A stretch of 64,000 nucleotides of DNA, from the NCBI GenBank assembly GCA_964507305.1, contig CAZDPQ010000001.1, forward strand, positions 16,507 through 80,506. Reading direction: 5' to 3'. Position numbers and translations under genes: made by a program. Of the stretch, positions 3,259-62,157 are shown piece after piece (the stretch's first letter is position 1; each line of letters starts with the position of its first letter). Below the pieces are notes generated by a model. The model searched no databases, had not been told where the DNA came from, and saw nothing but the letters and a program-made list of their open reading frames with translations. The DNA comes from an uncultured Oscillospiraceae bacterium (GTDB taxonomy: Bacteria; Bacillota; Clostridia; Saccharofermentanales; UBA5734).

Positions 3259-3262
3259 ACGG

Positions 3263-9161: not shown

Positions 9162-9227
9162 CGGCAATTTCTCCTTCTATCCGTCAAGTCAATGCATACG
9201 CGCCGCCATGCGCCGCGCCCCGCGGGG

Positions 9228-35896: not shown

Positions 35897-36823
35897 TCAG
35901 TACACCTCCCGGAATTTTCTCGCAATCGCGTGGGCGGCCAGATTCATCCCCAGCGTAAAAACGAATAGAAGCAGGCCGACCGCGTACAGGCTGTAATAGC
36001 CGGTCGTCCCGCTCCCGGCGTCTCCGCTGGTGAATTCCACGATATAGGCGGTCATCGTCTCCAGGGATTTCGTGATGTCCAGCGTAAAGGCTTTCGAACT
36101 GCCTGATGCGATCGCCACGATCATGGTCTCCCCGACCGCGCGGGACATGCCGAGGACGACCGACGCGATGATGCCGGACAGGGCGGCCGGCATGACCACC
36201 TTCAGCGTCGTTTCCAATTTCGTCGTTCCGAGCGCCAGGGAACCCTCCCGCAGCATGTCCGGGACGCTGTTCATGGCATCCTCCGAAAGGGAGGAGATCA
36301 GCGGGATGATCATGATCCCCATGACGATGCCGGGGCTGAGCATGTTTTTCGCCCCGATGCCCGGCAGGATCTTCATCAGAAGCGGGGTGACGAAGGAATA
36401 CGCGAAAAAGCCGTAGACGATCGTCGGGATCCCGGCCAGGACCTCGATGACCGGCTTGAGGATTTTGCGGACGGTCGCGGAGGCAAATTCGCTCAGGTAG
36501 ATCGCACCGGCAAGCCCCAGCGGCACCGCCACCAGCATGGCGATCAGCGATGTCAGTACGGTGCCCGCGATGATCGGCAGGAAACCGAAGGACGGGTTTT
36601 TCGCAAGCGGCGCAAGATGCGTGCTGAAGACCTCCCTCAGCGGGACCACGGCAAAAAACCTTGCCGCGTCGAAGAAAAGGGTCCAGAGGATCCCGGCTGT
36701 CGTGATGATCGAGACAGAAGCCGCCAGGGCCAGAAGGACGAAAACCGTCCTGTCATTCCGGCGTTTCCGGGAACTGCCGCTGTTTTTAATGATCGTTTCC
36801 CTGATTTCCGCGGGATATCGCAT
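35897..36823 (-). CDS. pstC: phosphate ABC transporter permease PstC
   Basis: Multi-TM protein containing REGSLALGTTKLETTLKVVMP. ATG 36823 follows AAAGGAAA. Confidence 0.88.
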   Translation of the reverse strand: MRYPAEIRETIIKNSGSSRKRRNDRTVFVLLALAASVSIITTAGILWTLFFDAARFFAVVPLREVFSTHLAPLAKNPSFGFLPIIAGTVLTSLIAMLVAVPLGLAGAIYLSEFASATVRKILKPVIEVLAGIPTIVYGFFAYSFVTPLLMKILPGIGAKNMLSPGIVMGIMIIPLISSLSEDAMNSVPDMLREGSLALGTTKLETTLKVVMPAALSGIIASVVLGMSRAVGETMIVAIASGSSKAFTLDITKSLETMTAYIVEFTSGDAGSGTTGYYSLYAVGLLLFVFTLGMNLAAHAIARKFREVY

Positions 36824-36901
36824 GCCGTTTCCTTTCATAACGGACAGGACAGCCGCGCGTCATGCGTCTGTCCCTCCGGCGTTCGTTTTTCGTTTCCGCG
36901 T

Positions 36902-37891
36902 TTATCCGATCGCTTCCAGCGCGGCCATGGCCTGATAGGCGGCATAATCCGCGGCGGGCAGAGGCGCGAAGCCGTTGGCGCCCGCAAAACGAAGCGCTCC
37001 CTGATCCGAAACGATGTACTTGGCAAAATCCAGCACGGCGGGATCCGATTCGGCTTTCCTCAGATTCAGGTAGGTATAGACGGCCCTCGTGAATCCGGCG
37101 TAGCCAAGCTCTTCCCCGATCGTCTCAAGGGACGGCTCCACCCCGCCTGCGCCGAAATCGACCTTGACCGCCGTCAGTTTGTCGGTATTGCCGGCATAAT
37201 AGCCGTAGCCGAAAAAGGCGATCGCATTGACATCGTTGGCCACCAGGTCAACGAGTGTCGAATATTCCTGCTGCAGATCGATTGTTTTGACCAGGTCGGC
37301 CTTCTTGAGCAGGGTTTCATGGAAAAACTCATAGGTCCCGTGATTCTCATTCGGGCCGTAGAACGATATCGCCTGCGCCGGCCACGAACTCCGGATGTCC
37401 GACCAGAAAACCTTGTCGTCCGTCCGCCAGGTCCCGGAAGTGAACATCCCCAGGATTTCCGACACGGTCATCTCCGTCGCCCATGTGTTGCCTTTGTTGA
37501 TCACGATCGTCAGTCCGTCGTAGGCGATCTTGATTTCGAGGATATCCGTGCCATAGAGGATCCCGGCTTCATTCAATGCGGTCTTCTCCTCATCCTTGAT
37601 CGCTCTGGATGCGTCGGAAAAATCGGTCTCGCCGGCAATGAACTTTTTGAATCCGGCGCTGGTCCCTGCCCGGCCCACTTCCACGCTCACATCGGGCTGC
37701 ACGCCGGTCATGTACTCTTCGGCAAGATTTGCCATGAGCGGATAGACGGTCCCCGAACCGTCGATGGCCACATCGCCGCTCAGCGCTTCATCCGAAGTTC
37801 CTGAACCCGATCCGGTCGGCTGCGCGGAACACGCCGACGCCGAGATTGCCATAAGGGCTGCCAATACCATCACTGAAAATCGTTTTACCAT
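36902..37891 (-). CDS. pstS: phosphate-binding lipoprotein PstS
   Basis: ATG 37891 (MVKRFSVMVLAALMAISASAC lipobox) after AGGAGGTG. PBP-like body, and position at the head of pstSCAB. Confidence 0.88.
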   Translation of the reverse strand: MVKRFSVMVLAALMAISASACSAQPTGSGSGTSDEALSGDVAIDGSGTVYPLMANLAEEYMTGVQPDVSVEVGRAGTSAGFKKFIAGETDFSDASRAIKDEEKTALNEAGILYGTDILEIKIAYDGLTIVINKGNTWATEMTVSEILGMFTSGTWRTDDKVFWSDIRSSWPAQAISFYGPNENHGTYEFFHETLLKKADLVKTIDLQQEYSTLVDLVANDVNAIAFFGYGYYAGNTDKLTAVKVDFGAGGVEPSLETIGEELGYAGFTRAVYTYLNLRKAESDPAVLDFAKYIVSDQGALRFAGANGFAPLPAADYAAYQAMAALEAIG

Positions 37892-38018: not shown

Positions 38019-38360
38019 CTACAGAATCACGATCGTGATCCCGTGGTTGCTGCGCGCCCAGTCCTGGTCGCGGCGGAGGCCGGGATTCAGCTCGATGGCC
38101 TTGCGGCCGTCGTTCTCGAACGGGCCGAAGGATTCGCCCGGGCAGAAGTATTTGACTCTGCCCTGGGCCTGAAGGTTGCGCAGGCACTCGCGGGTCCGGT
38201 GGCGGAGGACGCCGCCCTTGCCTGTGGACCCGTATCCGTGCACGACCTTGACGCAGTCGATGCCCATCCGGCGAAGCGTGACGAGCTCAAGCTTCAGCCG
38301 GGCAACAGCCGCATCCCCGGAAGGCATGCCCTGCTCCAGATTGACCGTCTGAATTTTCAT
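38019..38360 (-). CDS. Smr-domain protein
   Basis: The VKVVHGYGSTGKGGVLR motif resembles the Smr HGxG core. 113 aa, TAG stop. Confidence 0.75.
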   Translation of the reverse strand: MKIQTVNLEQGMPSGDAAVARLKLELVTLRRMGIDCVKVVHGYGSTGKGGVLRHRTRECLRNLQAQGRVKYFCPGESFGPFENDGRKAIELNPGLRRDQDWARSNHGITIVIL

Positions 38361-39079: not shown

Positions 39080-40177
39080 TCAAGGCATCCCGCCGATGAT
39101 TTTCAGTCGTTCGATGATCGGCAGGTGCTGCGTGCAAAGCGTTTCGCACTGCCCGCATGCCGTGCATTGCAGCGCTTCCTTTTTTTTAACACCCCAGTAG
39201 TATTTGAGCCGGCCGGTCGTCGCACCGTCTTCTCCGGTCATGATCTTCCGGTTGTACGCCTCCATGAATTTCGGGATCGGGATGCCGGCGGGGCAGCTGT
39301 CGCAGTAGCCGCAGCCCGTGCAGAGGAAGTTGAGCGACTCGCGCAGATGCCGGCGGATCCCGTCGAGCCGTTCGGGCCGGATGGGGGCAAGCGAATCGGC
39401 AGCCGGGACATTTTCATCCACTTCCGCGATGGATCCCATCCCCGATAAAGTGACGGCGATTTCACGGTGGGAAATATTGAAGCGAAGCGCGGCCTGGGCG
39501 ATCGTGTCGTCCGTACCGTCCTTCAGGAAGGCAAAGAATGAGGGGTTCTGCGGGATCATCCCGCCGCCGAGCGGATTCATGGTCACGACACCCATGCCCT
39601 GTCCGTAAGCTGCACGGAGCCCTTCTTCCCGATATGCGAAATTGGACGCGTTGTATCCGAGCAGGATCCCTTCGTAGGCGCCTTCTTCGGCGACCCGGCG
39701 GATCTCGTCACCGCTCATGTGCGTCGAAATGCAGATGTGGCCGACCAGCCCTTCCTCCTTCAGGCGGAGTGCCCCTTCGTAGGGCCCGCCGGGTGCCATG
39801 ACCTTGCGGTACTGGGGAAAATTGAGAACGTTCCACATATGGAAAAAGGAAATTTTCCCGACACCCATCCTCTCCAGAGAAAGCTCGCATCGCCTCCGGA
39901 CATCATCAGCGGTCTTATCAGCCATGATCGAGCTCTTGGTAGATACGAAAAACGCACCCGGCATGTCCCGGAACGCCAGCCCGAAGATTTTTTCCGACAT
40001 GTCGTCACAGTATCCGGGTGCGGTGTCGAAATAATTGATCCCCAGCCGGTTCGCGTGCCGGACGATTTCGGCGCAGATCATCGGATCCTTTTCATAATCC
40101 TCTCTGCGGAAGCGCATGCCACCGAACCCGAGGGCGCTGACTTTTATCCCTGTTTTCCCGTATTCCTTATAGATCAT
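39080..40177 (-). CDS. aldo/keto reductase with C-terminal 4Fe-4S ferredoxin-like domain
   Basis: YGKTGIKVSALGFGGMRF AKR N-terminus. Two Cys clusters: CTGCGYCDSCP and CTACGQCETLC. Confidence 0.8.
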   Translation of the reverse strand: MIYKEYGKTGIKVSALGFGGMRFRREDYEKDPMICAEIVRHANRLGINYFDTAPGYCDDMSEKIFGLAFRDMPGAFFVSTKSSIMADKTADDVRRRCELSLERMGVGKISFFHMWNVLNFPQYRKVMAPGGPYEGALRLKEEGLVGHICISTHMSGDEIRRVAEEGAYEGILLGYNASNFAYREEGLRAAYGQGMGVVTMNPLGGGMIPQNPSFFAFLKDGTDDTIAQAALRFNISHREIAVTLSGMGSIAEVDENVPAADSLAPIRPERLDGIRRHLRESLNFLCTGCGYCDSCPAGIPIPKFMEAYNRKIMTGEDGATTGRLKYYWGVKKKEALQCTACGQCETLCTQHLPIIERLKIIGGMP

Positions 40178-40250
40178 GCCGCTCCGCTCCTTCTGCTTTT
40201 CTGCTCTTTACGCCGTCTCATGCTTCATCATCCGCCGGCCGCGGCTTCTC

Positions 40251-41171
40251 TCATACCGGCACGCCGGCTGTTCCGCCATCCGCGTCCGGCCAGGCGTTCT
40301 CGGCCATATACGAGCTGCGAACCAGCGGACCGGACGATACATGCGCGAACCCTCGCGACAAAGCGGCTTCCCGGTACCGTTCGAAAACCTCCGGATGGAC
40401 ATACTCGCGCACGGGATAATGATGCGCGGTGGGGGGCAGGTACTGTCCGATCGTCAGAAATTCGCAGCCGTGCGCTCTCAGGTCGTCCATCACCCTGAGG
40501 ACTTCTTTCGCGGTCTCGCCGAGTCCGAGCATGATGCCGGATTTCGTCCGGATCGATGGCTGCGCGGCTTTCACCCGGGCAAGCAGCTCAAGCGACCTGG
40601 CATAGACCGCCTGGGGCCGGACTTCCGGATACAGCCGCGGTACGGTCTCGACATTGTGGTTGATGACGTCCGGCTTGGCGCCGATCACCGTCTGAAGGGC
40701 CTGCGCGTCCCCCTGGAAATCCGGGATCAGGACTTCGATCCTCGGAAATCCGGCAGCATCTCCGATGCGGCGGATCGCGCCGATGACGGCGGCGAAATGG
40801 GAGGCGCCGCCATCCGGCAGGTCGTCCCGCGTGACCGACGTGACTACGGCATAACGCAGGCCCAGCCTGGCGGCGGCATCCGCGACGCGGCCGGGCTCTC
40901 CGGGATCCGGCGGCCGGGGCGTCCCCCCGGCGACGCCGCAGAACGTGCAGCCTCGCGTGCAGATGCTGCCCAGGATCATGAACGCCGCTGTCCGGCGCCC
41001 GAAGCATTCCCCGCAATTCGGGCAGGATGCCTCTTCGCAGACCGTGTTCAAGCCGAGGGACCGGAGCATGCCCGCGACCTCCGCGCTGTTTGCCGCGTTG
41101 CCCGCGGAAATGTGCAGCCATTCCGGTTTTTTCATCCTGCCTGTTACTTCCATGGCCATCTCCTTGTCCAT
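40251..41171 (-). CDS. lipA: lipoyl synthase
   Basis: [12 protein letters not shown] auxiliary-cluster motif and [10 protein letters not shown] radical-SAM motif. Preferred start is ATG 41171 (MDKEM), after the lipB stop. Confidence 0.9.
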
Positions 41172-41191
41172 TTCATCGCAGCCGCCGGCCT

Positions 41192-41917
41192 TCACGATAA
41201 ACTTCCCCGTGCCAGTTCCTCCTCGAGCGCGGCCCGGCCGATCCGGCGGAACCGGCAATCGAAATGGCGCGCCATGCTGCCGATGACCTGCTCGCGGACT
41301 GCTTCTATGTCAATGTCACGGCCCAGTTCCCGCCGGATGGATGTCACGCCTTTCGACAGGCCGCAGGGATTGATGAAGTCGAACATGCCGAGGTCGGTGT
41401 TGACATTGAACGCGAAGCCGTGCATCGTGACGCCGTTCACGACCGCCAGGCCGAACGCCGCGATTTTCGCCTCACCGACCCAGACGCCGGTGAATTTACC
41501 CGTCTGCGCGTACGCATCGATCCCGTAATGGATCCTGAGCACATCGATCAGCGACTCTTCCAGCGCTGAGATGAACCACCGGATCCCCTGCTCGAAATCC
41601 CGGAGCTGCACGATCGGATATCCGATGATCTGGCCCGGGCCGTGAAATGTCACATCGCCCCCGCGGTTGACCTCAAATGTTTCGATCCCGGCCGCGCGCA
41701 GCTGTTCTTCGGTCGCGTAGATGTTGCGCCGGTCGGTTCTGGTCCCGAGCGTCAGCACGGGCGGATGCTCCAGCAGCAGGAGCGTGCTGCCGGTGCGCCC
41801 TTCCCGGCGCGCGTCCACCAGCCTTCTCTGAAGATCCAGCGCCTCTCCGTACGGGATCGATCCAATGCTGCAAACGGTCCACTCCATGTCCGAACCCCTT
41901 TCCATTCCGATTTCCAT
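41192..41917 (-). CDS. lipB: octanoyltransferase
   Basis: [19 protein letters not shown] and [12 protein letters not shown] motifs. The start is 41917 or 41887. Confidence 0.85.
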
Positions 41918-41926: not shown

Positions 41927-42742
41927 TCAGGCCCGGCCGGCCCGCCGGTCCGTTCCGCCGTCGATCGCCGCGCGGACCGACGATAGATACGAATACAGGA
42001 AGGGCGCCGCCCCTGCCCGATGTTTTTCGATGATCCGGACGATCGCACTGCCGATGATCACACCGTCCGCGATCCCGGCCATTTCCGCCGCCTGTTCAGG
42101 TGACGAGACCCCGAATCCGATCGCGACGGGAGTGTCCGTTTCCTTCCGGACCTCCGCGACGATCTCCGACAGGTCTTTGCTGAAAGACTTCCGGATTCCG
42201 GTGACGCCGAGCGAAGACACGAGATAGACGAAGCCTTCCGCGCTTTTTGCGAGCCGCCGGACTCGGTCCCCGGACACGGGCGAGATGAGCGTGATGATGC
42301 GGATCCCGTGCCGCGCCGCGGCTCCCGCGATCTCCCCGCGCTCTTCGAAAGGCAGGTCGGGAATGATCAGCCCTGCGATCCCGGTTTCCGCGCAGCGCTT
42401 CAAGAAGCGTTCGTACCCGTAAACGAACACCGGATTGATATAGGTCAGAAAAAGGAGCGGAACCGGAGAACGGCTCCGGATGGAGGAAACCATGTCGAAA
42501 ATCCCGTCGATCGTGGCGCCTCCGTGCAGTGCCCGCGCGTCGGACCGCTGGATCACCTCGCCTTCCGCGACCGGATCTGAAAACGGGATGCCGATCTCGA
42601 TCAGGTCGGTGCCGGCGCGTTCCATCTCCAGGATGAATTCGGCAGTGCACGCGAGGGAAGGGTCCCCGGCCGTCAGAAAGCCGATCAGCGCTTTCTTCCC
42701 CGCGAACGCGGGAGCGATGTCCGGTATTTTTTGATCATTCAT
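41927..42742 (-). CDS. trpA: tryptophan synthase alpha chain
   Basis: ATG 42742 (MNDQKIP...[11 protein letters not shown]) overlaps the end of trpB (GATGAATGA). [12 protein letters not shown] motif. The ORF-track start at 42937 is an upstream extension. Confidence 0.92.
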
Positions 42743-43943
42743 CGATCTTTTCCCCCCTGTACCTTGCGATGGCGGCCACGTCCTTGTCGCCTCTGCCCGA
42801 GAGATTGACGATAAGGACCGCGTCTTTGCCCATCTGCGGCGCGAGCCGGGCGGCATGGGCAAGTGCGTGTGCGGACTCGATCGCCGGAATGATCCCCTCC
42901 GTACGTGAAAGCGATTCGAACGCCGCGACGGCTTCATCGTCGGTCACGGGCACGTACTCCGCGCGGCCCGTGGAATGGAGCCAGGCATGCTCCGGGCCGA
43001 TCCCGGGGTAATCCAGGCCTGCCGAGATGGAGTAGACCGGCATGATCTGCCCCCATTCATCCTGGCAGAAAATCGACTTCATGCCGTGGAAGATCCCCGC
43101 GGATCCCCGGGCGATCGTCGCTGCGTGGAATCTCGTGTCCAAGCCCTTCCCCGCGGCTTCGCAGCCGATCAGCCGGACGCCGGGGTCGCCGAGGAAATGG
43201 TAAAAGGCGCCGATCGCGTTGCTTCCGCCGCCCACGCACGCGATGACCGCATCCGGGAGCCTCCCTTCGGCCCGCAGGATCTGCTCCCGCGCTTCGAGGC
43301 TGATGACGCTCTGGAAATCCCGAACGATCTCGGGAAACGGATGCGGCCCCATGACCGACCCCAGAACATAATGCGTGTCGGCGATCCGGCGCGTCCACTC
43401 GCGAAGCGTCTCATTGACCGCGTCTTTGAGTGTCATCGTCCCTGATTTTACCACATGTACCTTCGCTCCGAGAAGCTTCATCCGATAAACATTCAGCGCC
43501 TGACGCCGGGTGTCTTCCATTCCCATGAAAATCTCGCACTCCAGGCCCATGAGCGCCGCCGCCGTCGCCGTTGCGACGCCGTGCTGCCCGGCCCCGGTCT
43601 CCGCAATCACGCGCTTCTTGCCCATCCGTTTCGCGAGCAGGACCTGCCCCAGGACATTGTTGATCTTATGCGAACCCGTGTGGTTGAGATCTTCCCGTTT
43701 CAGATAGATCTTCGCACCTCCGAGGCTCGCGGTCATGCGATCCGCGCGGTACAGGAGAGACGGCCTCCCTGCGTACTCCGCCAGAAGCTTCTCCAACTCT
43801 TCGTTGAATGCGGCGCTGCCGCGGTAAAACCGGTAGGCGGACTCCAGTTCGTCCAGGGCATTCATGAGCGTCTCCGGGACATATTGCCCACCGTAGATCC
43901 CGTATCTTCCATTCCCCATGGTTTCCTTCTCCCTTCCCGTCAT
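42735..43943 (-). CDS. trpB: tryptophan synthase beta chain
   Basis: [14 protein letters not shown]-lysine motif; full length at 402 aa. Confidence 0.95.
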
Positions 43944-44644
43944 CCGATATGCCGTCCGGACTGCACGGCCGCGGCCGTCAAAGCGGCCGCCGGCGCGGGC
44001 TTCCGGGCCGCCTCGCGAAGCGCCCGGACGATCCGGACGGCTTCGAGGATCTTTTCCCGGTCCTTTGCGCCATCCGTCTCAACGCCGCTGCTGATGTCCA
44101 CGCAATAAGGCGAAGCTGTCCGGACCGCTTCCGCGAGATTGCCGGCATGCAGCCCGCCCGCAAGGAAGAACGGCCTGCCGCAGTCTTTCACCGGTTCCCA
44201 GTCGAACGTCTGTCCCGTGCCGCCGTATGCCCCCGGCCGCTGTGCATCAAAGAGCGGATAGTCATAAAGAGGGCTCCGCCCGTTCTCAAAATCCGTCAGC
44301 CGGCGGGCCTCGAAGTCCCTGCCGACGCGGACCGCCTTGATCAGCGGCCGCGAAACCTGCGTCCGCAGCGCGGCAACATACCGCTCATCCTCATCTCCAT
44401 GCAGCTGGATCAGGTCGATGATGCCCGCTTCGCAGCATTTCCGGATAAATTCCGGATCCTCGTTCACAAAAACGCCGACTGTCCGGATCTCTTTGCGCAA
44501 TTCGCTGCGGAGCAGATACGCCCGGTTGAAATCCACCTGCCGGCTGCTCTCCGCGAAAACAAATCCCGCAAAGTCCGGTTTTGCCTCATTGACCCATTCC
44601 ACATCGCTGAAACGTCGGATCCCGCAGATCTTGACTTTGGTCAT
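43940..44644 (-). CDS. trpF: phosphoribosylanthranilate isomerase
   Basis: [11 protein letters not shown]... and the LAGGL motif. 4-nt overlaps with both neighbours. About 35 aa of C-terminal Ala-rich tail. Confidence 0.88.
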
Positions 44645-45474
44645 ACCGGCCTCCGTTCCGGGCAGGCCGCCTGCCTGCAGCCTCTCGGCGCCGCCCCGGC
44701 CGCCTTCATCTTTTGCAGGAGGCCGGTCCGGTCGGCACTTCGCATGAGGCTTTCGCCGACGAGCGCCGCGTCCGCGCCGATCCCGCGCACGAACGCAATG
44801 TCCTCCGAGCCCGAGATGCCGCTTTCCGCCACGAATACCACGTCATCCGGCACAAAACGGGCCAGCCTCGCGGCGATGTCCGGATCGACCTTGAACGTCC
44901 GGAGGTCGCGGCTGTTGACGCCGATGACCGACGCCCCGCATTCGAGTGCGACGGCGATCTCCCTTTCGCTGCGTGTCTCCGCCAGGCAGGTGATCCCGAG
45001 TACGCCCGCTGCGCGAAGGAAGCGGGCGATCTGCTCCCGGCCGAGGATCGCGCAGATCAGCAGGATCGCGTCCGCGCCGTATGCCGCAGCTTCGTAGATC
45101 TGGAACTCATCGAGGATGAAATCTTTCTGGAGGACCGGGACCGCGCTGCGCGCCTTGATGGCGGCAAGATGCTCCGGGTCCCCGAGGAAAAAATCCGGCT
45201 CCGTCAGGACGGACAGGGCGTCCGCCCCTCCCGCTTCATACTCTGCCGCAATCTTCAGGAAATGAAAATCCTCCGCGATCACGCCCATGGACGGCTATGC
45301 TTTCTAGATTTCGGCAATAAGCGACAGCCCCTCCGCGCGGAGAGCTTTTTCGAACGCAAAGGATTTCGGCGCGAACCGGTCCGGAACCGAACGGATCCGC
45401 GCCGCATAGGCTTCATCCCGCTTTCTGTTCTCCACCCGCGTCAGGACGGATGCCGCGATATCATCCAGAAACAT
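44641..45474 (-). pseudogene. trpC: indole-3-glycerol-phosphate synthase interrupted by two in-frame TAG codons
   Basis: A single frame runs from ATG 45474 (MFLDDIAA) to 44641. TAG occurs at 45304-45306 and 45295-45297, giving LIAEI*KA*PSMGVIAEDF. The ORF track splits the gene into 45304..45501 and 44641..45288. Confidence 0.85.
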
Positions 45475-45478
45475 GGCC

Positions 45479-46501
45479 TCATCCCTCCCTGTCCGGCTCA
45501 TTCGAGAGCCGGACGAAACGGTCCAGGATCGCTTTGGCCGCCCCGCTGCCGATCGCCTCTTCCGCGATTTTCACGCAATCCCTCAGCGTCACGTTATCCC
45601 GCGCCATATACACGCACAGGGCGCTGTTGAGCACGACCGCGTCGCGTTTCGGGCCGCGCGCGCCGCCCAGGATCTCCCGGGCGATCCGCGCGTTGTCGGC
45701 CGGCAGTCCGCCGGTCAGGTCGCCCGGCCTGCAGCGGGCGATCCCGAACTGCTCGGGGGTGATGAAAAAGGAATTGACTTTTCCGTCGCGGACCTCGCAG
45801 ACCGTCGTCGTATCGCAGAGGGTCACCTCGTCGAGGCCGTCGTGCCCGTGGACGACCATGGCCTTTCGGACGCCGAGGTTGACGAGCACCCTGGCCATCG
45901 GCTCGACCAGGTTTTCATCATAAACGCCGAGAAGCAGGAGCTTCGCTCCGGCGGGATTGGCCAATGGCCCCAGGATGTTGAACACGGTCCGGACGCCGAG
46001 CTCCTTCCGGACCGGCGCCGCATACTTCATGGACGAATGGTACAAAGGTGCGAAAAGGAAGCACAGGCCGATCTTCTCCAGGATCTCCGCGCTTTTGCGG
46101 GGCGGGATATCGATCCGGACGCCGAGCGCCTCCAGCACATCGGCACTGCCGCATTTGCTGGAAACGCTCCGGTTGCCGTGCTTGGCGACCCGGATCCCGC
46201 AGGCGGCCGCGACGAACGCGGAAAGAGTGGAGATGTTGAAGGTCGCGGCCTCGTCCCCGCCGGTCCCGACGATGTCCATCACCTCATGACGGCACGGCAG
46301 CTTTTCGCATTTGTCGCGCATGACCGACGCGCACGCCGTGATCTCGTCGATGCTCTCCCCTTTCATCCGCAGGGCGGTCAGGAATGCTGCGATCTGCGCA
46401 TTCGTCGCCCCGCCCTCCATGATCAGGTTCATGATATTCTCCGTCTCTTCCAGAGAAAGATCTTTCCCGTTCATCAGGTCATAAATCGCTTCCCGGATCA
46501 T
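45479..46501 (-). CDS. trpD: anthranilate phosphoribosyltransferase
   Basis: DIVGTGGDEAATFNIST and KHGNRSVSSKCGSADVLE motifs. Confidence 0.93.
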   Translation of the reverse strand: MIREAIYDLMNGKDLSLEETENIMNLIMEGGATNAQIAAFLTALRMKGESIDEITACASVMRDKCEKLPCRHEVMDIVGTGGDEAATFNISTLSAFVAAACGIRVAKHGNRSVSSKCGSADVLEALGVRIDIPPRKSAEILEKIGLCFLFAPLYHSSMKYAAPVRKELGVRTVFNILGPLANPAGAKLLLLGVYDENLVEPMARVLVNLGVRKAMVVHGHDGLDEVTLCDTTTVCEVRDGKVNSFFITPEQFGIARCRPGDLTGGLPADNARIAREILGGARGPKRDAVVLNSALCVYMARDNVTLRDCVKIAEEAIGSGAAKAILDRFVRLSNEPDREG

Positions 46502-47109
46502 CGTGAATTCCTCCTTTCACCTGCGGACAGTCCGTCGTTTTCGGACCGGTCCAGAAAATTCCATAAAATGGTCCGCCCCTGCGGCGTCAGGACCGATTCC
46601 GGATGGAATTGCACGCCGTAGGTCTCGTGGTCCCGGAGACGGACCCCCATGACTTCCCCCGCGTTGTCCTCGGCGATCACGAGCAGCTCGTCCGGCAGCG
46701 TGCTCCGCCGTGCCGCGAGCGAGTGGTACCGGCCCGCTTCGATGACCGGAGGGAGCCCCCTGAAAACGGGGCTGCCGTTCGCCAGGTGGACCAGACTTTT
46801 CTTGCCGTGCATCATCTCGGCCGCGTAGGTGATTTCGGCGCCGAACGCTTCGCAGATGGCCTGATGGCCGAGGCAGACGCCCAGGATCGGGATCCTGCCG
46901 GCATGTTCCCGGATGATCGCTTCGCAGGCGCCTGCGTCTGCCGGGCGCCCCGGCCCCGGCGAAAGGACGATGTGCGAAGGCTTCAGCGCCGCGACATCGT
47001 CCGGCGTGACCCGGTCGTTGCGGACGACCCGGATGTCCGGTGATTTTTCACCGATCATCTGGTACAGGTTATAGGAAAAGCTGTCGTAGTTGTCGATCAG
47101 AAGGATCAT
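46498..47109 (-). CDS. trpG: anthranilate synthase component II (glutamine amidotransferase)
   Basis: ATG 47109 (MILLIDNYDSFSYNLYQ) forms an ATGA overlap with the trpE stop. GVCLGHQ catalytic Cys. Confidence 0.92.
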   Translation of the reverse strand: MILLIDNYDSFSYNLYQMIGEKSPDIRVVRNDRVTPDDVAALKPSHIVLSPGPGRPADAGACEAIIREHAGRIPILGVCLGHQAICEAFGAEITYAAEMMHGKKSLVHLANGSPVFRGLPPVIEAGRYHSLAARRSTLPDELLVIAEDNAGEVMGVRLRDHETYGVQFHPESVLTPQGRTILWNFLDRSENDGLSAGERRNSR

Positions 47110-48599
47110 GCCGATACCTCCCCCGCAGCGCGTACCGCCTGCATCATCGCCTCGGCCTTGTTCGCGCATTCGGCGTATTCGCGTTCCGGAACGCTGTCCG
47201 CCACGATGCCCGCGCCGGATTGGATGTAGATCTTCCCGCCTTTTGACACCGCCATGCGGATCGCAATGCAAAGGTCCATGTTCCCCGAAAGGGAGATGTA
47301 CCCCGCCGCTCCCCCGTAGATCCCGCGCTTATGACCCTCAAGCGCATTGATGATCTCGCAGGCGCGGCGTTTCGGCGCACCGGAAAGCGTCCCGGCCGGG
47401 AGGACGGCCGCCATGGCGTCGAATCCGTCCGCATCCTCCCGGAGCACGCCGCGGACGGAGGATGTGAGGTGCGTCACATGGGAATATTTCACGACTTTCT
47501 GGTAATCCTCGACCCGCACCGTACCGAACCGGCTGACCTTCCCGAGGTCATTCCGCCCGAGATCGACCAGCATATTATGTTCGGCAAGCTCTTTTTCATC
47601 GCGCACCAGATCCGCGATCAGCCGTTCGTCTTCTTCCGGCGTCGACCCGCGCGGGCAGGTGCCGGCGATCGGGAACGTGCGCAGGATGCCGTCCTCGAGG
47701 CGTATCAGCGTTTCGGGCGAAGCCCCTGCCACCTGAGTGTCGTCTGTACTGATGTAGAACATGTACGGAGACGGGTTGATCGTCCGGAGAGCCCGGTAAA
47801 CGGGAAGGAGATCGCCGCTGAATCCGGCTTCGAAGCGGTTGGAAAGCACTGCCTGGAAAATGTCGCCTTCGCGGATATGTTCTTTGGCTTTCCGCACCAG
47901 GCCGCAATACTCTTCTTCGCCGAAGAGCGGACGGAACGGCGACGACACCGAAGATTTCTCGCCGGACCGTTCCGTGTTTTCATGGAGGATGTTCTCGATC
48001 TCCTTGATGCGGATCACAGCGCCGATGTAATTCGGCTCGAGATCCTTCGTCTCGATGTTGACAATGATCCGGATCTTCTGCTTCAGGTGGTCGAACACGA
48101 TGACCTTGTCATACAGCATGAGATGGAAATCGTCGAACCCCGGGGCATTGTCGTTTTCGAGCGTCAGGCCTTCCTCCGCATATTGGACAAAATCGTAGGA
48201 AATCGTTCCGACCAGCCCGCCGGTGAACCGCGGAAAACCTTCCGGCTCCGGGCTTCGGAACGCGCCGGCGATCTCACGCAGCACGCCCAGCGGCCCGCCG
48301 CTCCGGGCGACCTCTGCTGCGTCCAGGGAGCAGGATGTCCCGAGGGCAAAATCCCTGATCATGATCGTGCGGTCCAGGGCACGGATCTCCATCCGCGGAT
48401 CCAGGCCGAGGAATGAGTATCGGCCCCACTTTTCACCGCCCTCCACGCTCTCGAGGAGAAAGCATCTCTCCCCCCGCTTCTTGAGGCTGCGCAGAACCTG
48501 GATCGGCGTCCGGATATCCGAATAGATCTCCATGCCGACCGGCACGACCGGATAGCTGCGCGCGTATTCCCTTGCTTCCTCCATCGTCGGACTGACCAT
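47106..48599 (-). CDS. trpE: anthranilate synthase component I
   Basis: GTLSGAPKRRACEII and LESVEGGEKWGRYSF motifs. ATG 48599 (MVSPTMEEA) follows GGAAGGAGAG. The ORF-track start at 48734 lies inside the T-box leader. Confidence 0.92.
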   Translation of the reverse strand: MVSPTMEEAREYARSYPVVPVGMEIYSDIRTPIQVLRSLKKRGERCFLLESVEGGEKWGRYSFLGLDPRMEIRALDRTIMIRDFALGTSCSLDAAEVARSGGPLGVLREIAGAFRSPEPEGFPRFTGGLVGTISYDFVQYAEEGLTLENDNAPGFDDFHLMLYDKVIVFDHLKQKIRIIVNIETKDLEPNYIGAVIRIKEIENILHENTERSGEKSSVSSPFRPLFGEEEYCGLVRKAKEHIREGDIFQAVLSNRFEAGFSGDLLPVYRALRTINPSPYMFYISTDDTQVAGASPETLIRLEDGILRTFPIAGTCPRGSTPEEDERLIADLVRDEKELAEHNMLVDLGRNDLGKVSRFGTVRVEDYQKVVKYSHVTHLTSSVRGVLREDADGFDAMAAVLPAGTLSGAPKRRACEIINALEGHKRGIYGGAAGYISLSGNMDLCIAIRMAVSKGGKIYIQSGAGIVADSVPEREYAECANKAEAMMQAVRAAGEVSA

Positions 48600-48620: not shown

Positions 48621-48935
48621 AAAAAAACACTCGTCCCCGATGAATCCATCAAGGACGAGTGCTTCAAAGTCACCCGTGGTGCCACCTTGCTTTGCGATGC
48701 CGAAAACATCGCACTCTCTGCGGAATACCGTCATATTCCCCGCAACTCACGTATGCGCCCACGTCACGGAATACTCGGGCCGGCCGCCTGACCGCGCCGT
48801 TCGCCCTTTGACCATGCCCTCCGCGGTCCATTTGATATCCTGCGTTGTACGGGACTCTCAGCGCCGCCCGCTCTCTGTAACCGCACGAATACCGTTATCT
48901 CCGCATCACCGGTTTAAAAAAGGTATATTCGGTTT
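48621..48935 (-). promoter_or_regulatory. T-box leader, Trp-specific (specifier UGG)
   Basis: The minus strand shows a stem-I AGAGAG element. The specifier-loop sequence AUCAAAUGGAC has UGG at 48828-48830. The T-box sequence is AAGGUGGCACCACGGG (48673-48686), with a UGGC bulge complementary to GCCA. The terminator CACTCGTCC...GGACGAGTG plus T7 lies at 48621-48661. Confidence 0.82.
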
Positions 48936-48973: not shown

Positions 48974-50362
48974 CTAATTTTGTATGGAACCTGCTCCGCC
49001 GAGCCAAGCGACTGCCGCTCTGTTGAAACCAAAGTCCGGCGAACGGCTGAAGTAGAAAAGACGGGTGCCCATGTCCGCATAGCTGAAAACGGCGACAACA
49101 AGGGCTCCGGAAGAGAACATCCGGTCAAGGTATTCCCTGGCGTCCTTTTCTTCCGTCAGGCCTGTCGCATAGCCTTCCACACAGCCGAAATACGGCATGT
49201 TCGGATCCGCGTCGTGTATCTCGGATTTCAGAACATCCAGATCATAGGGGCAGGTGACCGGATTCATCGTGAAACCGGGCACACTGTAGGGATTCACCGC
49301 ACACCAGGTAGGCGGATCGAACGTGGACTGGGTGATCCGGGATGTCGACAGAGAAACCATGTGGGTGAATATTTTCATGCGCGGGATCCCGGACTCGAAA
49401 ATCCGTTTGGAAACGTTCTCAGCAAAGTCATGGATCACCTGATACAACAGTCGTCTTGTATAAGCTGAGACAGAGGTATTGTTCTGCTTCGCTTCCGTAT
49501 CCAGCTTCACCTGGTCGTATCCCAGGGAGTGAAGAGCTGCATAGCCGTATTGTGTGAATTCCCAAGGCTGCATGGAGTCCCCGGTGATGATGTCCGACGG
49601 TGGATCTCCGGGATCCAGTCCGATCAGGTTATTGTTTTCGGAATAATCCGGGATGTGGGTTTCCCATCCCGAAGACAGACCCGCGAAAAGATAGGCTTTT
49701 CCTTCCTTCCGCAGCTTTGAAAGGCGTTTGTTCAGCGGCTCCAGCACGCCTTTTTGCAGGGAATCGGACAACAGTTTCATAAATTCGGGAGATGCCAGAT
49801 TCGGGAAAGCCGGGGAACGGAGCCACACTCCCCAGTTGAACCAGAATGCCGGAAGTTTCCCGTATGCTTTCTGGCCGCCCCAGATTTCATCTTTTTCCGG
49901 AAAAGTCACCCACTCGCACATGTCGGGATGTTCGTAGAATTTCACGGCGGCATCACCACCGAAATATGTGGTGTAATTGGTGATGTCATCCAATTGGAAG
50001 TACACGGGGATATCGTATTTTTCGGCGTAATCGAAGCCGGTGTCGATCGTATGGCGCATCTGGTCGATCGATTGAGTGATCAGCATCGGTCCGACGACGC
50101 CGAACGCATACATCCTTTTCGACTTCGGATCGATCTCTCCGTACAGCTGCTTCATTTCCGGAAGGTAGCCTTCGATTTCATCTACATGCTTGTTCGTAAA
50201 CATGAACATGAGATAACGGATCGGCTCCTCTTCATCGGCCGGCTGCTTCCCACATGACACGGCGGTCTGGAGCAGCAGGCAGGTGAGAATGAGAAAAGCT
50301 GCGGCAGCCTTCCTTCCGGAACTCATCCGGATCATAGTCTGTCCTGGGATCATGCGGCTCAT
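48974..50362 (-). CDS. uncharacterised lipoprotein, paralogue A of a two-member family in this island
   Basis: Lipobox LLQTAVSC. Collinear similarity with 60583..62157 over the whole mature protein (for example PVYFQLDD, FWFNWG, GWETHIPDYS, PVTCPY). TAG stop. Confidence 0.65.
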   Translation of the reverse strand: MSRMIPGQTMIRMSSGRKAAAAFLILTCLLLQTAVSCGKQPADEEEPIRYLMFMFTNKHVDEIEGYLPEMKQLYGEIDPKSKRMYAFGVVGPMLITQSIDQMRHTIDTGFDYAEKYDIPVYFQLDDITNYTTYFGGDAAVKFYEHPDMCEWVTFPEKDEIWGGQKAYGKLPAFWFNWGVWLRSPAFPNLASPEFMKLLSDSLQKGVLEPLNKRLSKLRKEGKAYLFAGLSSGWETHIPDYSENNNLIGLDPGDPPSDIITGDSMQPWEFTQYGYAALHSLGYDQVKLDTEAKQNNTSVSAYTRRLLYQVIHDFAENVSKRIFESGIPRMKIFTHMVSLSTSRITQSTFDPPTWCAVNPYSVPGFTMNPVTCPYDLDVLKSEIHDADPNMPYFGCVEGYATGLTEEKDAREYLDRMFSSGALVVAVFSYADMGTRLFYFSRSPDFGFNRAAVAWLGGAGSIQN

Positions 50363-59683: not shown

Positions 59684-60448
59684 ATGGATCTGGCGGTATT
59701 GGATTTCCAATTCATTTTTATCCATCAACCGAATACTGTGGTCACCTCCCACAATCACGACAGTTACGAATTAGTTTATTATTTTGAGGGAAGCGGCAGC
59801 AGTAAGACTCCTGATGGGTCCTTATCATTCGCAAAAAATTCATACTCGATCTATCCGCCGGAAGTTCTGCATGATGAATACCACAAAAACCGGACATCGG
59901 TCTATTGCATCGGATTCCGCCTGCAGCCCATCTGCAATGTTACGCTCCGATGCGGCAATTATCCGGATCCGGACGGCACGGTCCGTGAGATCGTCAACAA
60001 GGTCAAGCAGGAAGCGTTTCAGCACCAGGCCCATTATAAAGAAATGATCAATCTCCAGCTTTCCGAGTTCCTTTATCGGTTCGACCGCGGAAATCTCAAG
60101 GATACCATGAAATACGACGACTTTTATAAAATCAAACAGCACATCAATGAAAATATCGGATCCGAAATCGACATGCAGGAACTGGCGGATCTTTCAGGGT
60201 ACAGCTATCATTATTTCAGACATCTTTTCAAAATGCAGACCGGGCTTTCCCCGAAGCAATACATCATTCAGCAAAGACTTGAGTATTCCAAAATCCTGCT
60301 CGTCAATTCGCCGGAATCCGTCTTGAATATTGCACAGACTTGCGGTTTTTCCTGCAGCTCCCAGTTCGACATCATTTTCAGACGTTACACAGGGAAATCG
60401 CCCGTGCAGTTCCGCAGCGAAAAGCGGCGGGAAACCCTGGAGGTTTGA
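59684..60448 (+). CDS. AraC-family transcriptional regulator (cupin sensor + HTH)
   Basis: C-terminal LADLSGYSYHYFRHLFKMQTGLSPKQYIIQQRLEYSKILL double HTH. GGAGGA RBS. Divergent from the ABC operon. Confidence 0.88.
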   Translation: MDLAVLDFQFIFIHQPNTVVTSHNHDSYELVYYFEGSGSSKTPDGSLSFAKNSYSIYPPEVLHDEYHKNRTSVYCIGFRLQPICNVTLRCGNYPDPDGTVREIVNKVKQEAFQHQAHYKEMINLQLSEFLYRFDRGNLKDTMKYDDFYKIKQHINENIGSEIDMQELADLSGYSYHYFRHLFKMQTGLSPKQYIIQQRLEYSKILLVNSPESVLNIAQTCGFSCSSQFDIIFRRYTGKSPVQFRSEKRRETLEV

Positions 60449-60582
60449 GAACGGTCCGGAGCCATTTCCACAAAAAAGTAAGCCACTCCGCTGTTTCATC
60501 AGATCCGGCATTCGGGTACGCTAAAAAAACATTGGTATCCGGGGTGCAATGCCCCGGATACCGCCGGATCGGAGTCATATCG

Positions 60583-62157
60583 ATGAAAAAATGGTTTTGT
60601 GTAGCAGTTTCCGTACTTTTCCTGCTCACCTCGTGCGGCAGAATCCTAACTCCATTCCCTTCCGATACAAGTGCATCCTCCTTGGTAGAAACTCCGGATT
60701 CCAGGACGGACTCATCCGGCACGCAGGAACCGGCTGTCACCTCCGGGCTTTCTTCCTCTTCCGGAAGAGCATCGGGATCCTTTTCCACTGCATCCGGCTC
60801 CACGGACGCAGGATCGTCATCATCCGCGCCAGGATCCATGCAGGGAGGTTCTTCCCATATCGCATCCTCCGGCGTCAGCATCGAAGCGGATCGCATTCTC
60901 TACCGAGATCGGTATGTACGCAGCGAACGCTATATTGTCTTCTTCCTGACCAATACAAGCATTTCGCAGGCGCGTTCGTTCAATATGGGGAAAGATGCGG
61001 ATACCCGGTATAATTTCATCGAAGAAATCCCCCATATTTTCGGAGAAATCGATCCCGCCGGCCCTTATAAATACGCATTCGGCATCGCGGGCCCGATGCT
61101 TCTGACCCAGTCGGTCGCGGAAATGCAGGACGAGATTCGGCTGGCGTTCAATGCAGCTGAGAAATATAACGTTCCGGTTTATTTTCAATTGGACGACTGT
61201 AATAATTATACGACCCAGTTCGGCAGTGGCGCGTTACCGAAGTTTTATGAAAATCCCGATTGGTGTGAATGGGTTTCTTTTCCGGTGTTTTCTGAAACCT
61301 GGGGCGGCGAAAGCAATGGACGGCTTCCCTATTATTGGTTCAACTGGGGACGGTGGATGCACGCGTCGTCTTTCCCCTGCTTCCAGTCCGAAGGCTTGAG
61401 GAATTTCGTGGTCCGGCAGATGAAAGAAGGGGTTCTGAATCCTCTGAATGAGCGGCTGGACGCGCTGCGCAAAGCCGGTAAAGAATATCTGTTCGCCGGG
61501 ATGGCGATCGGATGGGAAACCCACATTCCGGATTATTCAACGGGAAATACCGTCCTGAATATCAATCCATCCGATCTGCTCGTCAATGTACTGGCGAATG
61601 ACCGGATGCAGCCCTGGGAAGCTGCGCGTTACGGGTATCATTCTCTGTCCATCCTTGATAAAGCATCATATGATCTGGAAACTCTGTATGATGTCATCCA
61701 CGATTATTCGGAACTTCTCGCCCGGACCGCTTATGATTCCGGGATCCCGAAAGAAAAAATCTATTCGCATATGGTTGGCTTCATGTCCGCCAGAACCGAT
61801 CTCCGGACAACATTTGCTCCGCCTGTCCGGGCTGCGGTCAATGCATACTGCACCCCGGGATATACCTTGTCGCCGGTGACCTGTCCCTATAATCTTGATA
61901 CTCTGGTAAATGAGATCCGGAAGGCAGATTCCGATCAGGATGAATTCGCGTGCGCAGAAGGATATGACCGCGGCGTAAACGGGTCATTTGCCCAAGCCGA
62001 CAGCTATTTCGATTCGATGTTCGGCCATGGAGCCGCGCTTGTGACCGTTTTCGGGTGGGGGATCGAAGCGGCGGACTCGCCGTTTGCAGTATCCCACAGT
62101 CCGGACAGCCCGTTTGTACAGGCTGCGGCGAAATGGCTGGAAACACCGGCATCCTGA
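60583..62157 (+). CDS. uncharacterised lipoprotein, paralogue B (with Ser-rich linker)
   Basis: ATG 60583 (MKKWFCVAVSVLFLLTSC lipobox) after GGAG. About 90-aa Ser-rich linker. The remainder is collinear with 48974..50362. Confidence 0.65.
   Translation: MKKWFCVAVSVLFLLTSCGRILTPFPSDTSASSLVETPDSRTDSSGTQEPAVTSGLSSSSGRASGSFSTASGSTDAGSSSSAPGSMQGGSSHIASSGVSIEADRILYRDRYVRSERYIVFFLTNTSISQARSFNMGKDADTRYNFIEEIPHIFGEIDPAGPYKYAFGIAGPMLLTQSVAEMQDEIRLAFNAAEKYNVPVYFQLDDCNNYTTQFGSGALPKFYENPDWCEWVSFPVFSETWGGESNGRLPYYWFNWGRWMHASSFPCFQSEGLRNFVVRQMKEGVLNPLNERLDALRKAGKEYLFAGMAIGWETHIPDYSTGNTVLNINPSDLLVNVLANDRMQPWEAARYGYHSLSILDKASYDLETLYDVIHDYSELLARTAYDSGIPKEKIYSHMVGFMSARTDLRTTFAPPVRAAVNAYCTPGYTLSPVTCPYNLDTLVNEIRKADSDQDEFACAEGYDRGVNGSFAQADSYFDSMFGHGAALVTVFGWGIEAADSPFAVSHSPDSPFVQAAAKWLETPAS

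What the first reader, a model, noticed from the sequence alone, without database searches (positions are those of the whole stretch)
45286..45308. Two in-frame amber codons 6 nt apart in the catalytic motif of an otherwise intact trpC
**Seen in the sequence:**
- On the minus strand the trpC frame is continuous from ATG 45474 to the stop at 44641.
- It contains TAG at 45306-45304 and at 45297-45295: ...GLSLIAEI-TAG-K-A-TAG-P-S-M-G-V-I-A-E-D-F...

**Established knowledge:**
- Indole-3-glycerol-phosphate synthases carry a conserved (L)IAE(I/F/Y)K(K/R)ASPSKG segment.
- The first Lys of that segment is a catalytic residue.

**What follows:**
- The two ambers sit exactly at the catalytic Lys and the conserved Ser positions. 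Each is one substitution away from AAG or TCG.
- The Lys of SKG is ATG here, and the ORF caller uses it as a restart.
- That is three single-base differences within 18 nt, and all of them create stop or start codons.
- The flanking 270 codons, the overlapping stop/start junctions of trpE-G-D-C-F-B-A and the T-box leader all look functional.
- The first TAG lies inside a TCTAGA palindrome (45303-45308).

**Possible explanations (inference):** a very recent knockout causing Trp auxotrophy with a permanently induced T-box operon, a sequencing or consensus artefact, amber suppression, or a two-piece enzyme. No SD is visible before the internal ATG, so a split enzyme is the least likely.
Basis: partly seen in the sequence, partly recalled or inferred. 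Interest (0 to 1): 0.65.

Follow-up and report, generated by a model that had tools for sequence, protein, structure and literature searches.

The report
Broken tryptophan gene trpC (double stop)
One gene of an otherwise intact tryptophan-synthesis operon in an uncultured Clostridia genome carries two stop codons inside its catalytic motif, which is most likely a fresh knockout made by one clustered mutation (or, less likely, a sequence error) and not an unusual genetic code or a new kind of enzyme.

Summary
On the minus strand the trpC frame (45474..44641) reads IAEI-TAG-K-A-TAG-P-S-ATG-G where every relative reads (C/A)E(V/I)-K-(K/R)-A-S-P-S-K-G. The first TAG replaces the Lys equivalent to M. 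tuberculosis IGPS Lys59, whose Ala mutant is inactive.

- **Damage is local.** All other invariant columns are kept. trpC is no more diverged than its neighbours. Twelve flanking syntenic genes have no internal stops. The Trp T-box leader and the coupled gene junctions are conserved.
- **TAG is a normal terminator here.** There is no suppressor tRNA, no second IGPS gene and no local or in-window template. The internal ATG has no Shine-Dalgarno sequence.
- **Not independent hits.** Three changes within 20 nt, all transversions, are not credible as independent or stepwise neutral mutations. They look like one clustered event.
- **Best reading (about 0.6):** a recent real loss-of-function allele that blocks de novo tryptophan synthesis at the IGPS step.
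- **Main rival (about 0.25):** a consensus error in a single deposited assembly.

The stops are in the NCBI record, because the 215-aa restart product is on file. No sister genome or second sample exists in any searched collection, so only the reads can decide. Recoding, suppression and a split enzyme are rejected. This is an ordinary pseudogene and of low interest.

The parts
44641..45474 (-). trpC (indole-3-glycerol-phosphate synthase) reading frame, 277 codons, interrupted at codons 57 and 60; conceptual product is otherwise a complete IGPS
   Evidence: (PF00218 236.5 bits, 1-248/254)
45304..45306 (-). First in-frame TAG, at the position of the catalytic Lys (K57 here; MtIGPS Lys59, SsIGPS Lys53)
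45295..45297 (-). Second in-frame TAG, at the invariant Ser (S60) of the ASPS segment
45286..45288 (-). ATG replacing the Lys of SKG (K63M), 6 nt after the second TAG; start of the 215-aa restart ORF 45288..44641 (= P0001); no Shine-Dalgarno upstream
45303..45308 (.). TCTAGA created by the first TAG; the only copy in the window and one of only 6 CTAG
45285..45290 (.). CCATGG created by the K63M change; a common hexamer here (30 copies)
48648..48918 (-). T-box leader with UGG (Trp) specifier context AAAUGGA, T-box sequence AAGGUGGCACCACG and terminator hairpin plus U-run; controls the operon
   Evidence: 70.2 bits, E 5.5e-15, below GA 93; conserved in L001 and L003 with compensatory pairs
47106..48599 (-). 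trpE, intact (497 aa)
46498..47109 (-). trpG, intact; ATGA overlap with trpE stop
45479..46501 (-). trpD, intact; ATGA overlap with trpG stop; its stop lies 4 nt before the trpC ATG
43940..44644 (-). trpF, intact; ATGA overlap with trpC stop
42735..43943 (-). trpB, intact (83.5% identical to L001 TrpB)
41927..42742 (-). trpA, intact; start overlaps the trpB stop
44645..44727 (-). Predicted 10-bp stem pairing the trpF Shine-Dalgarno (44645-44654) with trpC codons (44718-44727); consistent with trpC-to-trpF translational coupling (prediction only)
   Evidence: similar stem in L084 but not in L001 or L003

Best explanation
trpC in this genome is a dead gene carrying a recent loss-of-function allele.

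- A cluster of at least three transversions within 20 nt (coding-strand positions 45306, 45296 and 45287) turned the catalytic Lys57 and the invariant Ser60 into amber stops, and turned Lys63 into Met.
- The cluster was most likely made in a single mutational event, such as a short error-prone synthesis patch. That step is inferred.
- Translation ends at codon 57. No IGPS is made, so de novo tryptophan synthesis is blocked between CdRP and indole-3-glycerol phosphate.
- The Trp T-box, trpE, G, D, F, B and A remain intact. The cell should therefore depend on external tryptophan, or on indole through TrpBA. This step is also inferred.
- The 215-aa 'gene' that ORF callers report from the ATG is a by-product and not an enzyme.
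For: **Shown**
- The two TAGs and the ATG are present. They are in the deposited NCBI record.
- They fall on columns that are identical in 37/37 homologs and are sense codons in all other relatives.
- The Lys is essential for IGPS (PMC10591298).
- TAG is a true terminator in this genome: the Smr-like gene ends in TAG exactly at the homolog's C-terminus, and about 7 of 43 long ORFs end in TAG.

**Damage is focal and young**
- All other invariant columns, including E55, K117, E166, N187, E217 and S218, are retained.
- trpC divergence relative to its intrinsic rate is 1.8, inside the 1.4-2.5 range of the neighbouring trp genes.
- There are no other stops or frameshifts in trpC.

**Assembly is locally clean**
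- Twelve other syntenic genes (about 3,300 codons) have zero internal stops and single-frame full-length matches.
- Pfam-positive ORFs elsewhere cover their profiles fully.

**Single event**
- P(3 sites within 20 nt) = 0.0015.
- Stepwise neutral decay would imply about 80 other substitutions in the gene, including stops and hits on invariant residues, and these are not seen.
Against: - Only one assembly of this lineage exists in any searched resource, so the allele is unreplicated.
- No mechanism for the cluster could be shown: there is no inverted or direct repeat donor, no ectopic copy with 3 or fewer mismatches in the window, and in-place inversion does not fit (own check).
- Two of three clustered changes giving stops and the third giving a start codon is unlikely for a random patch (roughly 1e-4 given the location, from the counts). 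The finding was, however, selected because it contains stops.
- A blocked pathway with intact, derepressible upstream genes should be costly. This fits 'very recent' but also fits 'not real'.
Confidence: 0.6

Rival explanations
1. Sequence or consensus artefact. The organism has an intact trpC (AAG...TCN...AAR), and the three bases are errors introduced during sequencing, assembly or polishing of a single metagenome-assembled genome.
For: - It is a singleton deposit with no second sample or sister genome.
- The rest of the gene, operon and leader look fully functional, as expected if nothing is wrong biologically.
- The change creates CTAG and TAG, which this genome strongly avoids.
- Three clustered substitutions resemble a bad read end or a mis-polished patch.
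Against: - The surrounding 12 kb and all Pfam-supported genes show no frameshift, stop or truncation, so this is not a noisy assembly.
- In a short-read graph assembly, three changes within one k-mer form a haplotype that must be present in the reads (inference).
- Random errors would rarely give two stops plus an ATG.
Confidence: 0.25
2. Selected 'stop and restart' lesion. trpC was knocked out, and the ATG 6 nt after the second stop was retained or selected because ribosomes reinitiate there. They then translate the remaining 215 codons and keep trpF-trpB-trpA translationally coupled and free of polarity, so that indole can still be converted to tryptophan under T-box control.
For: - The ATG lies 6 nt after TAG2, in frame with an open 215-codon run that ends in the ATGA overlap with trpF.
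- The trpF SD is predicted to be sequestered by a perfect 10-bp stem with trpC codons, which translation of the trpC 3' end would open. A similar stem is found in L084.
- trpB and trpA are intact and are the best-conserved genes of the operon.
- An indole-salvage lifestyle is known in Chlamydia trachomatis (PMC6635532).
Against: - No SD precedes the ATG.
- The local RNA fold is unremarkable (z = 0.22).
- The SD-sequestering stem is absent in L001 and L003, and the fold z-score is only -1.1.
- Two stops are not needed for this scenario.
- trpE, G and D would be useless yet are intact.
- There is no population data, and the K63M change may simply be part of the same mutational patch.
Confidence: 0.05
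3. The TAG codons are decoded (amber suppressor tRNA, pyrrolysine, or TAG reassignment), and a full-length active IGPS is made.
For: Only that the frame is otherwise perfect and that the genome outside the 64-kb window could not be searched.
Against: - TAG terminates genes at homologous C-termini.
- There are no in-frame TAGs in the 12 neighbouring genes.
- The only tRNA in the window is Gln-CUG, and no Pyl-related domains appear among the Pfam hits.
- The two TAGs sit at positions that require different residues, Lys and Ser, each invariant.
- Even Lys-to-Arg at the first site nearly abolishes activity.
Confidence: 0.01
4. Deliberately engineered allele: stop codons placed with a diagnostic XbaI site, plus an NcoI-ATG.
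For: TCTAGA (unique in 64 kb) and CCATGG both arise from the changes. Multiple close nonsense codons are typical of designed knockouts (the design practice is from general knowledge).
Against: - The lineage is known only from metagenome assemblies. The closest relatives (58-61% TrpC identity) are unclassified Saccharofermentanales MAGs, and no cultured or manipulated relative was found.
- Given the flanking codons ATC-AAG-AAA and TCC-AAG-GGC, the two palindromes follow automatically from the substitutions. About 9% of substitutions land in some 6-bp palindrome (own estimate).
- CCATGG is common here (30 copies).
Confidence: 0.02
5. Two-piece IGPS: the 56-aa N-terminal peptide and the 215-aa C-terminal product assemble into an active barrel.
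For: Fragment complementation is known for some (beta-alpha)8 barrels (general knowledge). Both ORFs are open.
Against: - Residues 57-62 (K-K-A-S-P-S), including the essential Lys, would be absent from both pieces.
- There is no SD for the second piece.
- No relative is split.
Confidence: 0.01

Closest known systems
Bacillus subtilis 168 trpC2
   Same: A small lesion confined to trpC (IGPS) makes an otherwise intact trp operon non-functional and the strain tryptophan-auxotrophic (PMC7409865).
   Different: trpC2 is a 3-bp in-frame deletion produced by X-ray treatment of a laboratory strain. Here the lesion is at least 3 clustered substitutions giving two amber stops in an uncultured lineage, and the phenotype is untested.
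Natural decay of tryptophan biosynthesis with retained trpBA (indole salvage), e.g. Chlamydia trachomatis
   Same: An upstream pathway step is lost while tryptophan synthase is retained, allowing growth on indole (PMC6635532, PMC4042155).
   Different: In Chlamydia the upstream genes are long gone and the arrangement is fixed and regulated by TrpR/YtgR. Here all seven genes and the T-box are still present and only trpC is hit, so this is at most the very first step of such a process.
Multinucleotide (clustered) mutation events: error-prone polymerase tracts or short template switches
   Same: Several substitutions within about 20 nt appear together while the surrounding sequence is untouched (PMC5453318).
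   Different: No inverted-repeat donor, ectopic copy or in-place inversion explains this cluster, so the template-switch form was tested and not met. An error-prone polymerase origin is only inferred from clustering and the all-transversion spectrum.
Amber suppression / pyrrolysine decoding (pylTSBCD) / TAG reassignment
   Same: In-frame TAG codons inside an otherwise complete gene.
   Different: TAG is an ordinary terminator here. The two sites need different residues. No tRNA-CUA or pyl genes are in the window.

Membership tests
Indole-3-glycerol-phosphate synthase (Pfam PF00218, TrpC) | Full-length match to the family profile above the curated cut-off | tested here: met
   236.5 bits against a cut-off of 27, profile 1-248/254, with stops masked; best PDB hits are all IGPS
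Indole-3-glycerol-phosphate synthase (Pfam PF00218, TrpC) | Catalytic residues present (MtIGPS Glu57, Lys59, Lys119, Glu168, Glu219) | tested here: not met
   E55, K117, E166 and E217 are present, but the Lys59 equivalent (K57) is a TAG stop
Indole-3-glycerol-phosphate synthase (Pfam PF00218, TrpC) | Uninterrupted reading frame giving a 250-280-aa product | tested here: not met
   Stops at codons 57 and 60; relatives are 263-282 aa and uninterrupted
Indole-3-glycerol-phosphate synthase (Pfam PF00218, TrpC) | Position in a trpEGDCFBA operon | tested here: met
   Same order and junctions as in L001, L003 and L084
Recent pseudogene (loss-of-function allele) | Disabling lesion absent from all homologs | tested here: met
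   37 aligned homologs, 4 close loci and about 76 genomic homologs have sense codons at the three positions
Recent pseudogene (loss-of-function allele) | No accumulated secondary decay (so the lesion is recent) | tested here: met
   All other invariant columns kept; divergence ratio 1.8 within the neighbours' 1.4-2.5; no frameshift
Recent pseudogene (loss-of-function allele) | Lesion confirmed in reads or in an independent sample | not testable with these tools
   No reads available; no other contig of this lineage found
TAG-decoding systems (suppressor tRNA, Pyl, reassigned code) | TAG not used as a terminator, and in-frame TAGs spread over many genes | tested here: not met
   TAG ends real genes at homologous C-termini; 0 in-frame stops in the 12 neighbouring genes
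TAG-decoding systems (suppressor tRNA, Pyl, reassigned code) | tRNA with CUA anticodon, or pylTSBCD | tested here: inconclusive
   None in the 64-kb window; the rest of the genome is not available
T-box leader (Rfam RF00230) | Score at or above the Rfam gathering threshold | tested here: not met
   70.2 bits against 93; relatives score 72.3 and 76.7
T-box leader (Rfam RF00230) | Full-length architecture with specifier codon, T-box sequence and terminator, conserved in relatives | tested here: met
   Model 1-219/219, E 5.5e-15, AAAUGGA specifier, AAGGUGGCACCACG, hairpin plus U-run; identical specifier region and compensatory terminator pairs in L001-L003
Short template-switch / quasi-palindrome mutation | Nearby sequence whose copy or reverse complement reproduces the mutated stretch | tested here: not met
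   No repeat touches 45286-45308; the 27-mer has no other match with 3 or fewer mismatches on either strand of the window; in-place inversion gives an unrelated peptide

The most novel reading that the evidence does not exclude
The lesion is not a random wreck but a selected 'stop and restart' arrangement. IGPS is eliminated, while the new ATG 6 nt after the second amber lets terminating ribosomes reinitiate and translate the rest of the trpC frame. This keeps the translationally coupled trpF-trpB-trpA expressed under T-box control for indole salvage. It would be a natural example of polarity suppression evolving together with a knockout.
Probability: 0.05. Interest if true: 0.5.

Novelty: new member of a known kind. 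Interest (0 to 1): 0.18.

Why it matters
If real, this catches a free-living anaerobe at the moment it loses de novo tryptophan synthesis. One gene is hit, and the T-box regulator and the six other genes are still pristine. That is a small but clean data point for how auxotrophies arise in microbial communities. It is also an example of a clustered multi-base mutation in a bacterium.

In practice it matters for annotation:
- The 215-aa 'TrpC' that ORF callers report (P0001) is not an enzyme.
- Pathway-completeness tools would wrongly score this genome as a tryptophan prototroph.
- If the stops are an artefact, the case is a reminder that singleton MAG pseudogenes need read-level confirmation.

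Neither outcome changes what is known about genetic codes or about IGPS.

Tried and rejected
1. **Exact-product look-ups.** The 215-aa product, P0001, TrpD, TrpF and TrpB were looked up to find the source contig or sister contigs. None is on record.
2. **Pattern scan.** A degenerate 41-mer spanning the site, with the three bases free, found nothing in genome contigs or metagenome contigs.
3. **Protein-guided scan of genome contigs.** The best relative is 52% identical (most about 50% or below), and the source genome is not in that collection.
4. **Cluster look-up of P0001.** It is a singleton with no name or accession.
5. **Templated mutation.** There are no direct or inverted repeats at the site. 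There is no second copy of the 27-mer with 3 or fewer mismatches. In-place inversion of the 20-nt segment would encode IMDGYAF*, so it was rejected.
6. **DGR-type mutagenesis.** Rejected: there is no template repeat in the window, and one change is at a C rather than an A.
7. **Opposite-strand ORF 44713-45630 (+).** It has no stops in either the observed or the restored sequence, so the changes have no meaning there. It is a shadow ORF.
8. **Crude scan for other in-frame stops.** Too noisy in this 59% GC sequence to be useful. It was replaced by Pfam coverage and by synteny with L001.
9. **Rfam gathering scan.** It found no T-box. A permissive scan was needed.
10. **Second IGPS gene in the window.** None.
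11. **RNA structure around the site.** Unremarkable, z = 0.22.

Full report
**1. What is there**

Reading the minus strand from ATG 45474 to TGA 44643-44641 gives a 277-codon frame that is open except at codons 57 and 60. The local sequence is GCC GAA ATC TAG AAA GCA TAG CCG TCC ATG GGC GTG, which translates to A E I * K A * P S M G V.
- The TAGs are at 45306-45304 and 45297-45295. The ATG is at 45288-45286.
- TCTAGA (45303-45308) is unique in the 64-kb window. CCATGG (45285-45290) is one of 30 copies.
- With the stops masked, the product is a complete indole-3-glycerol-phosphate synthase: Pfam PF00218, 236.5 bits, profile positions 1-248 of 254.
- Solved IGPS structures align as IAEVKKASPSKG or IAEVKRASPSAG against IAEIxKAxPSMG.

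**2. Are these the critical positions?**

Yes.
- In an alignment with 37 homologs, K57, S60 and K63 are identical in all 37.
- Four close loci and about 76 more distant genomic homologs all have sense codons at these positions.
- The first TAG aligns to M. tuberculosis IGPS Lys59 (S. solfataricus Lys53). In that enzyme Lys59Ala has no detectable activity and Lys59Arg keeps 0.2% of kcat (PMC10591298).
- The other catalytic residues (E55, K117, E166, E217) and every other invariant column are retained.
- The remaining departures from the 37-homolog consensus are I2F, C54A and N188S. A54 is present in the solved IGPS chains shown; for S188 I rely on recalling the S. solfataricus sequence (GINSRDL), since one search shows only H and A at that column.

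**3. Context**

The gene sits in a trpE-G-D-C-F-B-A operon, with ATGA-type overlaps at most junctions.
- **Leader.** Upstream lies a T-box leader (48648-48918, minus strand). A standard Rfam scan misses it, because it scores 70.2 bits against a gathering score of 93. It is nonetheless full length (E = 5.5e-15) and has an AAAUGGA specifier context (UGG = Trp), the AAGGUGGCACCACG box and a terminator.
- **Leader conservation.** The same leader, also below threshold at 72-77 bits, is conserved in the closest relatives. They share an identical specifier region and show compensatory changes in the terminator stem.
- **Relatives.** The closest relatives are unclassified Saccharofermentanales (Clostridia) metagenome-assembled genomes and Logan contigs. 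They are only 58-61% identical in TrpC. All have an uninterrupted trpC, the same operon, and even the same downstream lplA-lipA-aldo/keto-reductase genes.

**4. Is the genome reading TAG as sense?**

No.
- About 7 of 43 long ORFs end in TAG.
- The Smr-like gene (38022-38360) ends in TAG exactly where its L001 homolog ends.
- Twelve syntenic genes (about 3,300 codons) contain no in-frame stop, while trpC has two within four codons.
- The only tRNA in the window is Gln-CUG.
- One suppressor could not supply both the Lys and the Ser that these columns require.
- A split enzyme is also excluded. Residues 57-62 would be missing from both pieces, the ATG has no Shine-Dalgarno sequence while most real starts in the operon have a GGAGG-like one, and no relative is split.
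- No second IGPS gene lies in the window.

**5. Is it in the deposit, and is the assembly trustworthy?**

- Database protein P0001 (215 aa, source NCBI, a single 94,447-nt contig, singleton cluster, unnamed) is 215/215 identical to the ORF that starts at ATG 45288. The interruption therefore exists in the public record.
- The local assembly is clean. The 12 other L001 protein-coding genes that have a counterpart in the window each match as a single full-length, single-frame alignment.
- ORFs elsewhere that have Pfam hits cover their profiles end to end.
- This is not the signature of a noisy long-read assembly.

**6. How did the lesion arise?**

- **Number of changes.** The minimal path is A>T, C>A and A>T on the coding strand, at 45306, 45296 and 45287. 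All are transversions, spaced 10 and 9 nt apart. That path assumes ancestral AAG/TCG/AAG. Relatives carry AAG or AAA, TCC or TCT, and AAA, so up to five changes are possible, and at least three are transversions under any choice.
- **Independent hits are not credible.** P(3 sites within 20 nt of 831) = 0.0015, and only 4 of 81 substitutions in the motif give a stop.
- **Stepwise neutral decay after a first stop is also rejected.** Two further hits in these 20 nt by chance would imply about 80 substitutions across the gene. Yet there are no further stops, no frameshift and no radical change at the other invariant columns. trpC is no more diverged than its neighbours, with a ratio of 1.8 against 1.4-2.5.
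- **Inference.** The changes most likely arose together.
- **No template was found.** No repeat touches the site. The 27-mer has no other match with 3 or fewer mismatches in the window. In-place inversion does not regenerate the motif. The template-switch model for clustered mutations (PMC5453318) is therefore not supported here.
- **Remaining explanations.** An error-prone synthesis patch remains as an inference, and a technical error remains as the alternative.
- **Sequence composition.** The changes create CTAG and TAG, both strongly avoided in this genome: CTAG is 6 observed against 233 or 18 expected, and TAG is the rarest trinucleotide. That fits either a very young mutation or an error.

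**7. Real or artefact?**

This cannot be settled with the available tools.
- Exact-product look-ups for five proteins of the locus found nothing.
- A degenerate 41-mer scan of the genome and metagenome collections found nothing.
- A protein-guided genome scan found nothing closer than 52%.
- There is therefore no second copy of this lineage, with or without the stops.
- I weigh a real allele at about 0.65. That splits into 0.6 for an unselected clustered event and 0.05 for a selected variant. The reasons are that the assembly is otherwise clean and that three changes inside one k-mer normally reflect a haplotype present in the reads (inference).
- I weigh an artefact at about 0.25.

**8. Consequences if real (inferred)**

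- No IGPS is made, so the pathway is blocked at CdRP to IGP.
- The T-box would derepress the operon whenever charged tRNA-Trp falls.
- The cell must import tryptophan, or make it from indole through the intact TrpBA.
- The trpF Shine-Dalgarno sequence is predicted to pair in a perfect 10-bp stem with trpC codons about 65 nt upstream. A similar stem occurs in L084 but not in L001 or L003. Early termination in trpC might therefore lower trpF-B-A expression.
- The ATG 6 nt after the second stop could in principle allow reinitiation and relieve that effect. This is the most interesting reading that is not excluded, but it rests on a prediction with an unremarkable z-score and no SD. I give it about 0.05.

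**9. Comparison with known cases**

- The closest analogue is B. subtilis 168 trpC2, a 3-bp deletion in trpC that makes an otherwise intact operon useless (PMC7409865).
- At the ecological level the closest analogue is loss of upstream trp steps with retained trpBA for indole salvage, as in Chlamydia.
- This case works like those. It is a new instance of a nonsense-disabled biosynthetic gene, not a new kind of system.
- The XbaI and NcoI palindromes follow automatically from the flanking codons (ATC-AAG-AAA and TCC-AAG-GGC). In an uncultured lineage they do not indicate engineering.

**10. Verdict**

- Novelty is low, and interest is 0.18.
- The one decisive test is read-level inspection of 45250-45350.

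Noticed in passing
window 48648-48918 (-); L001 4468-4740; L003 608-880: The Trp T-box leaders of this clade are full-length and conserved but score only 70-77 bits, below Rfam's gathering score of 93, so standard annotation misses them. In L001 a spurious 112-aa 'gene' (4522-4860) is called over the leader.
   Followed up: yes
whole window: Tetranucleotide skew is strong. GATC has 804 copies against 233 expected from base composition (689 Markov). CTAG has 6 against 233 (18 Markov). TAG/CTA is the rarest trinucleotide.
   Followed up: partly
window 44645-44654 and 44718-44727 (-): The trpF Shine-Dalgarno GGAGGCCGGU is predicted to pair perfectly (10 bp) with ACCGGCCUCC inside the 3' end of trpC, which suggests translational coupling by unfolding. 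An 8-bp equivalent exists in L084 but not in L001 or L003.
   Followed up: partly
window 40173-41528 (+), 36107-37804 (+), 7332-10397 (+): Very long shadow ORFs (451, 565 and 1021 aa) lie opposite real minus-strand genes (lipA, a PBP_like_2 protein, and probably a gene with GC3 of 0.85). Longest-ORF gene calling is misleading in this 59% GC sequence.
   Followed up: partly
window 48974-50362 (-) and others (1466-3262 -, 23445-25754 -, 60283-62157 +): Several long ORFs have no Pfam hit at E <= 1e-5. They include a 462-aa ORF immediately upstream of the T-box that has no counterpart at the same place in L001. I did not determine whether they are real genes.
   Followed up: no
window 44641-44700 (-): The window TrpC has a C-terminal extension of about 17 aa (…[15 protein letters not shown]) that most homologs lack. 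It overlaps the trpF ribosome-binding region.
   Followed up: no
window 45287, 45296, 45306: The three changed bases are spaced 9 and 10 nt apart, about one helical turn, and are transversions under any plausible ancestral codon. This is too few points to interpret.
   Followed up: no
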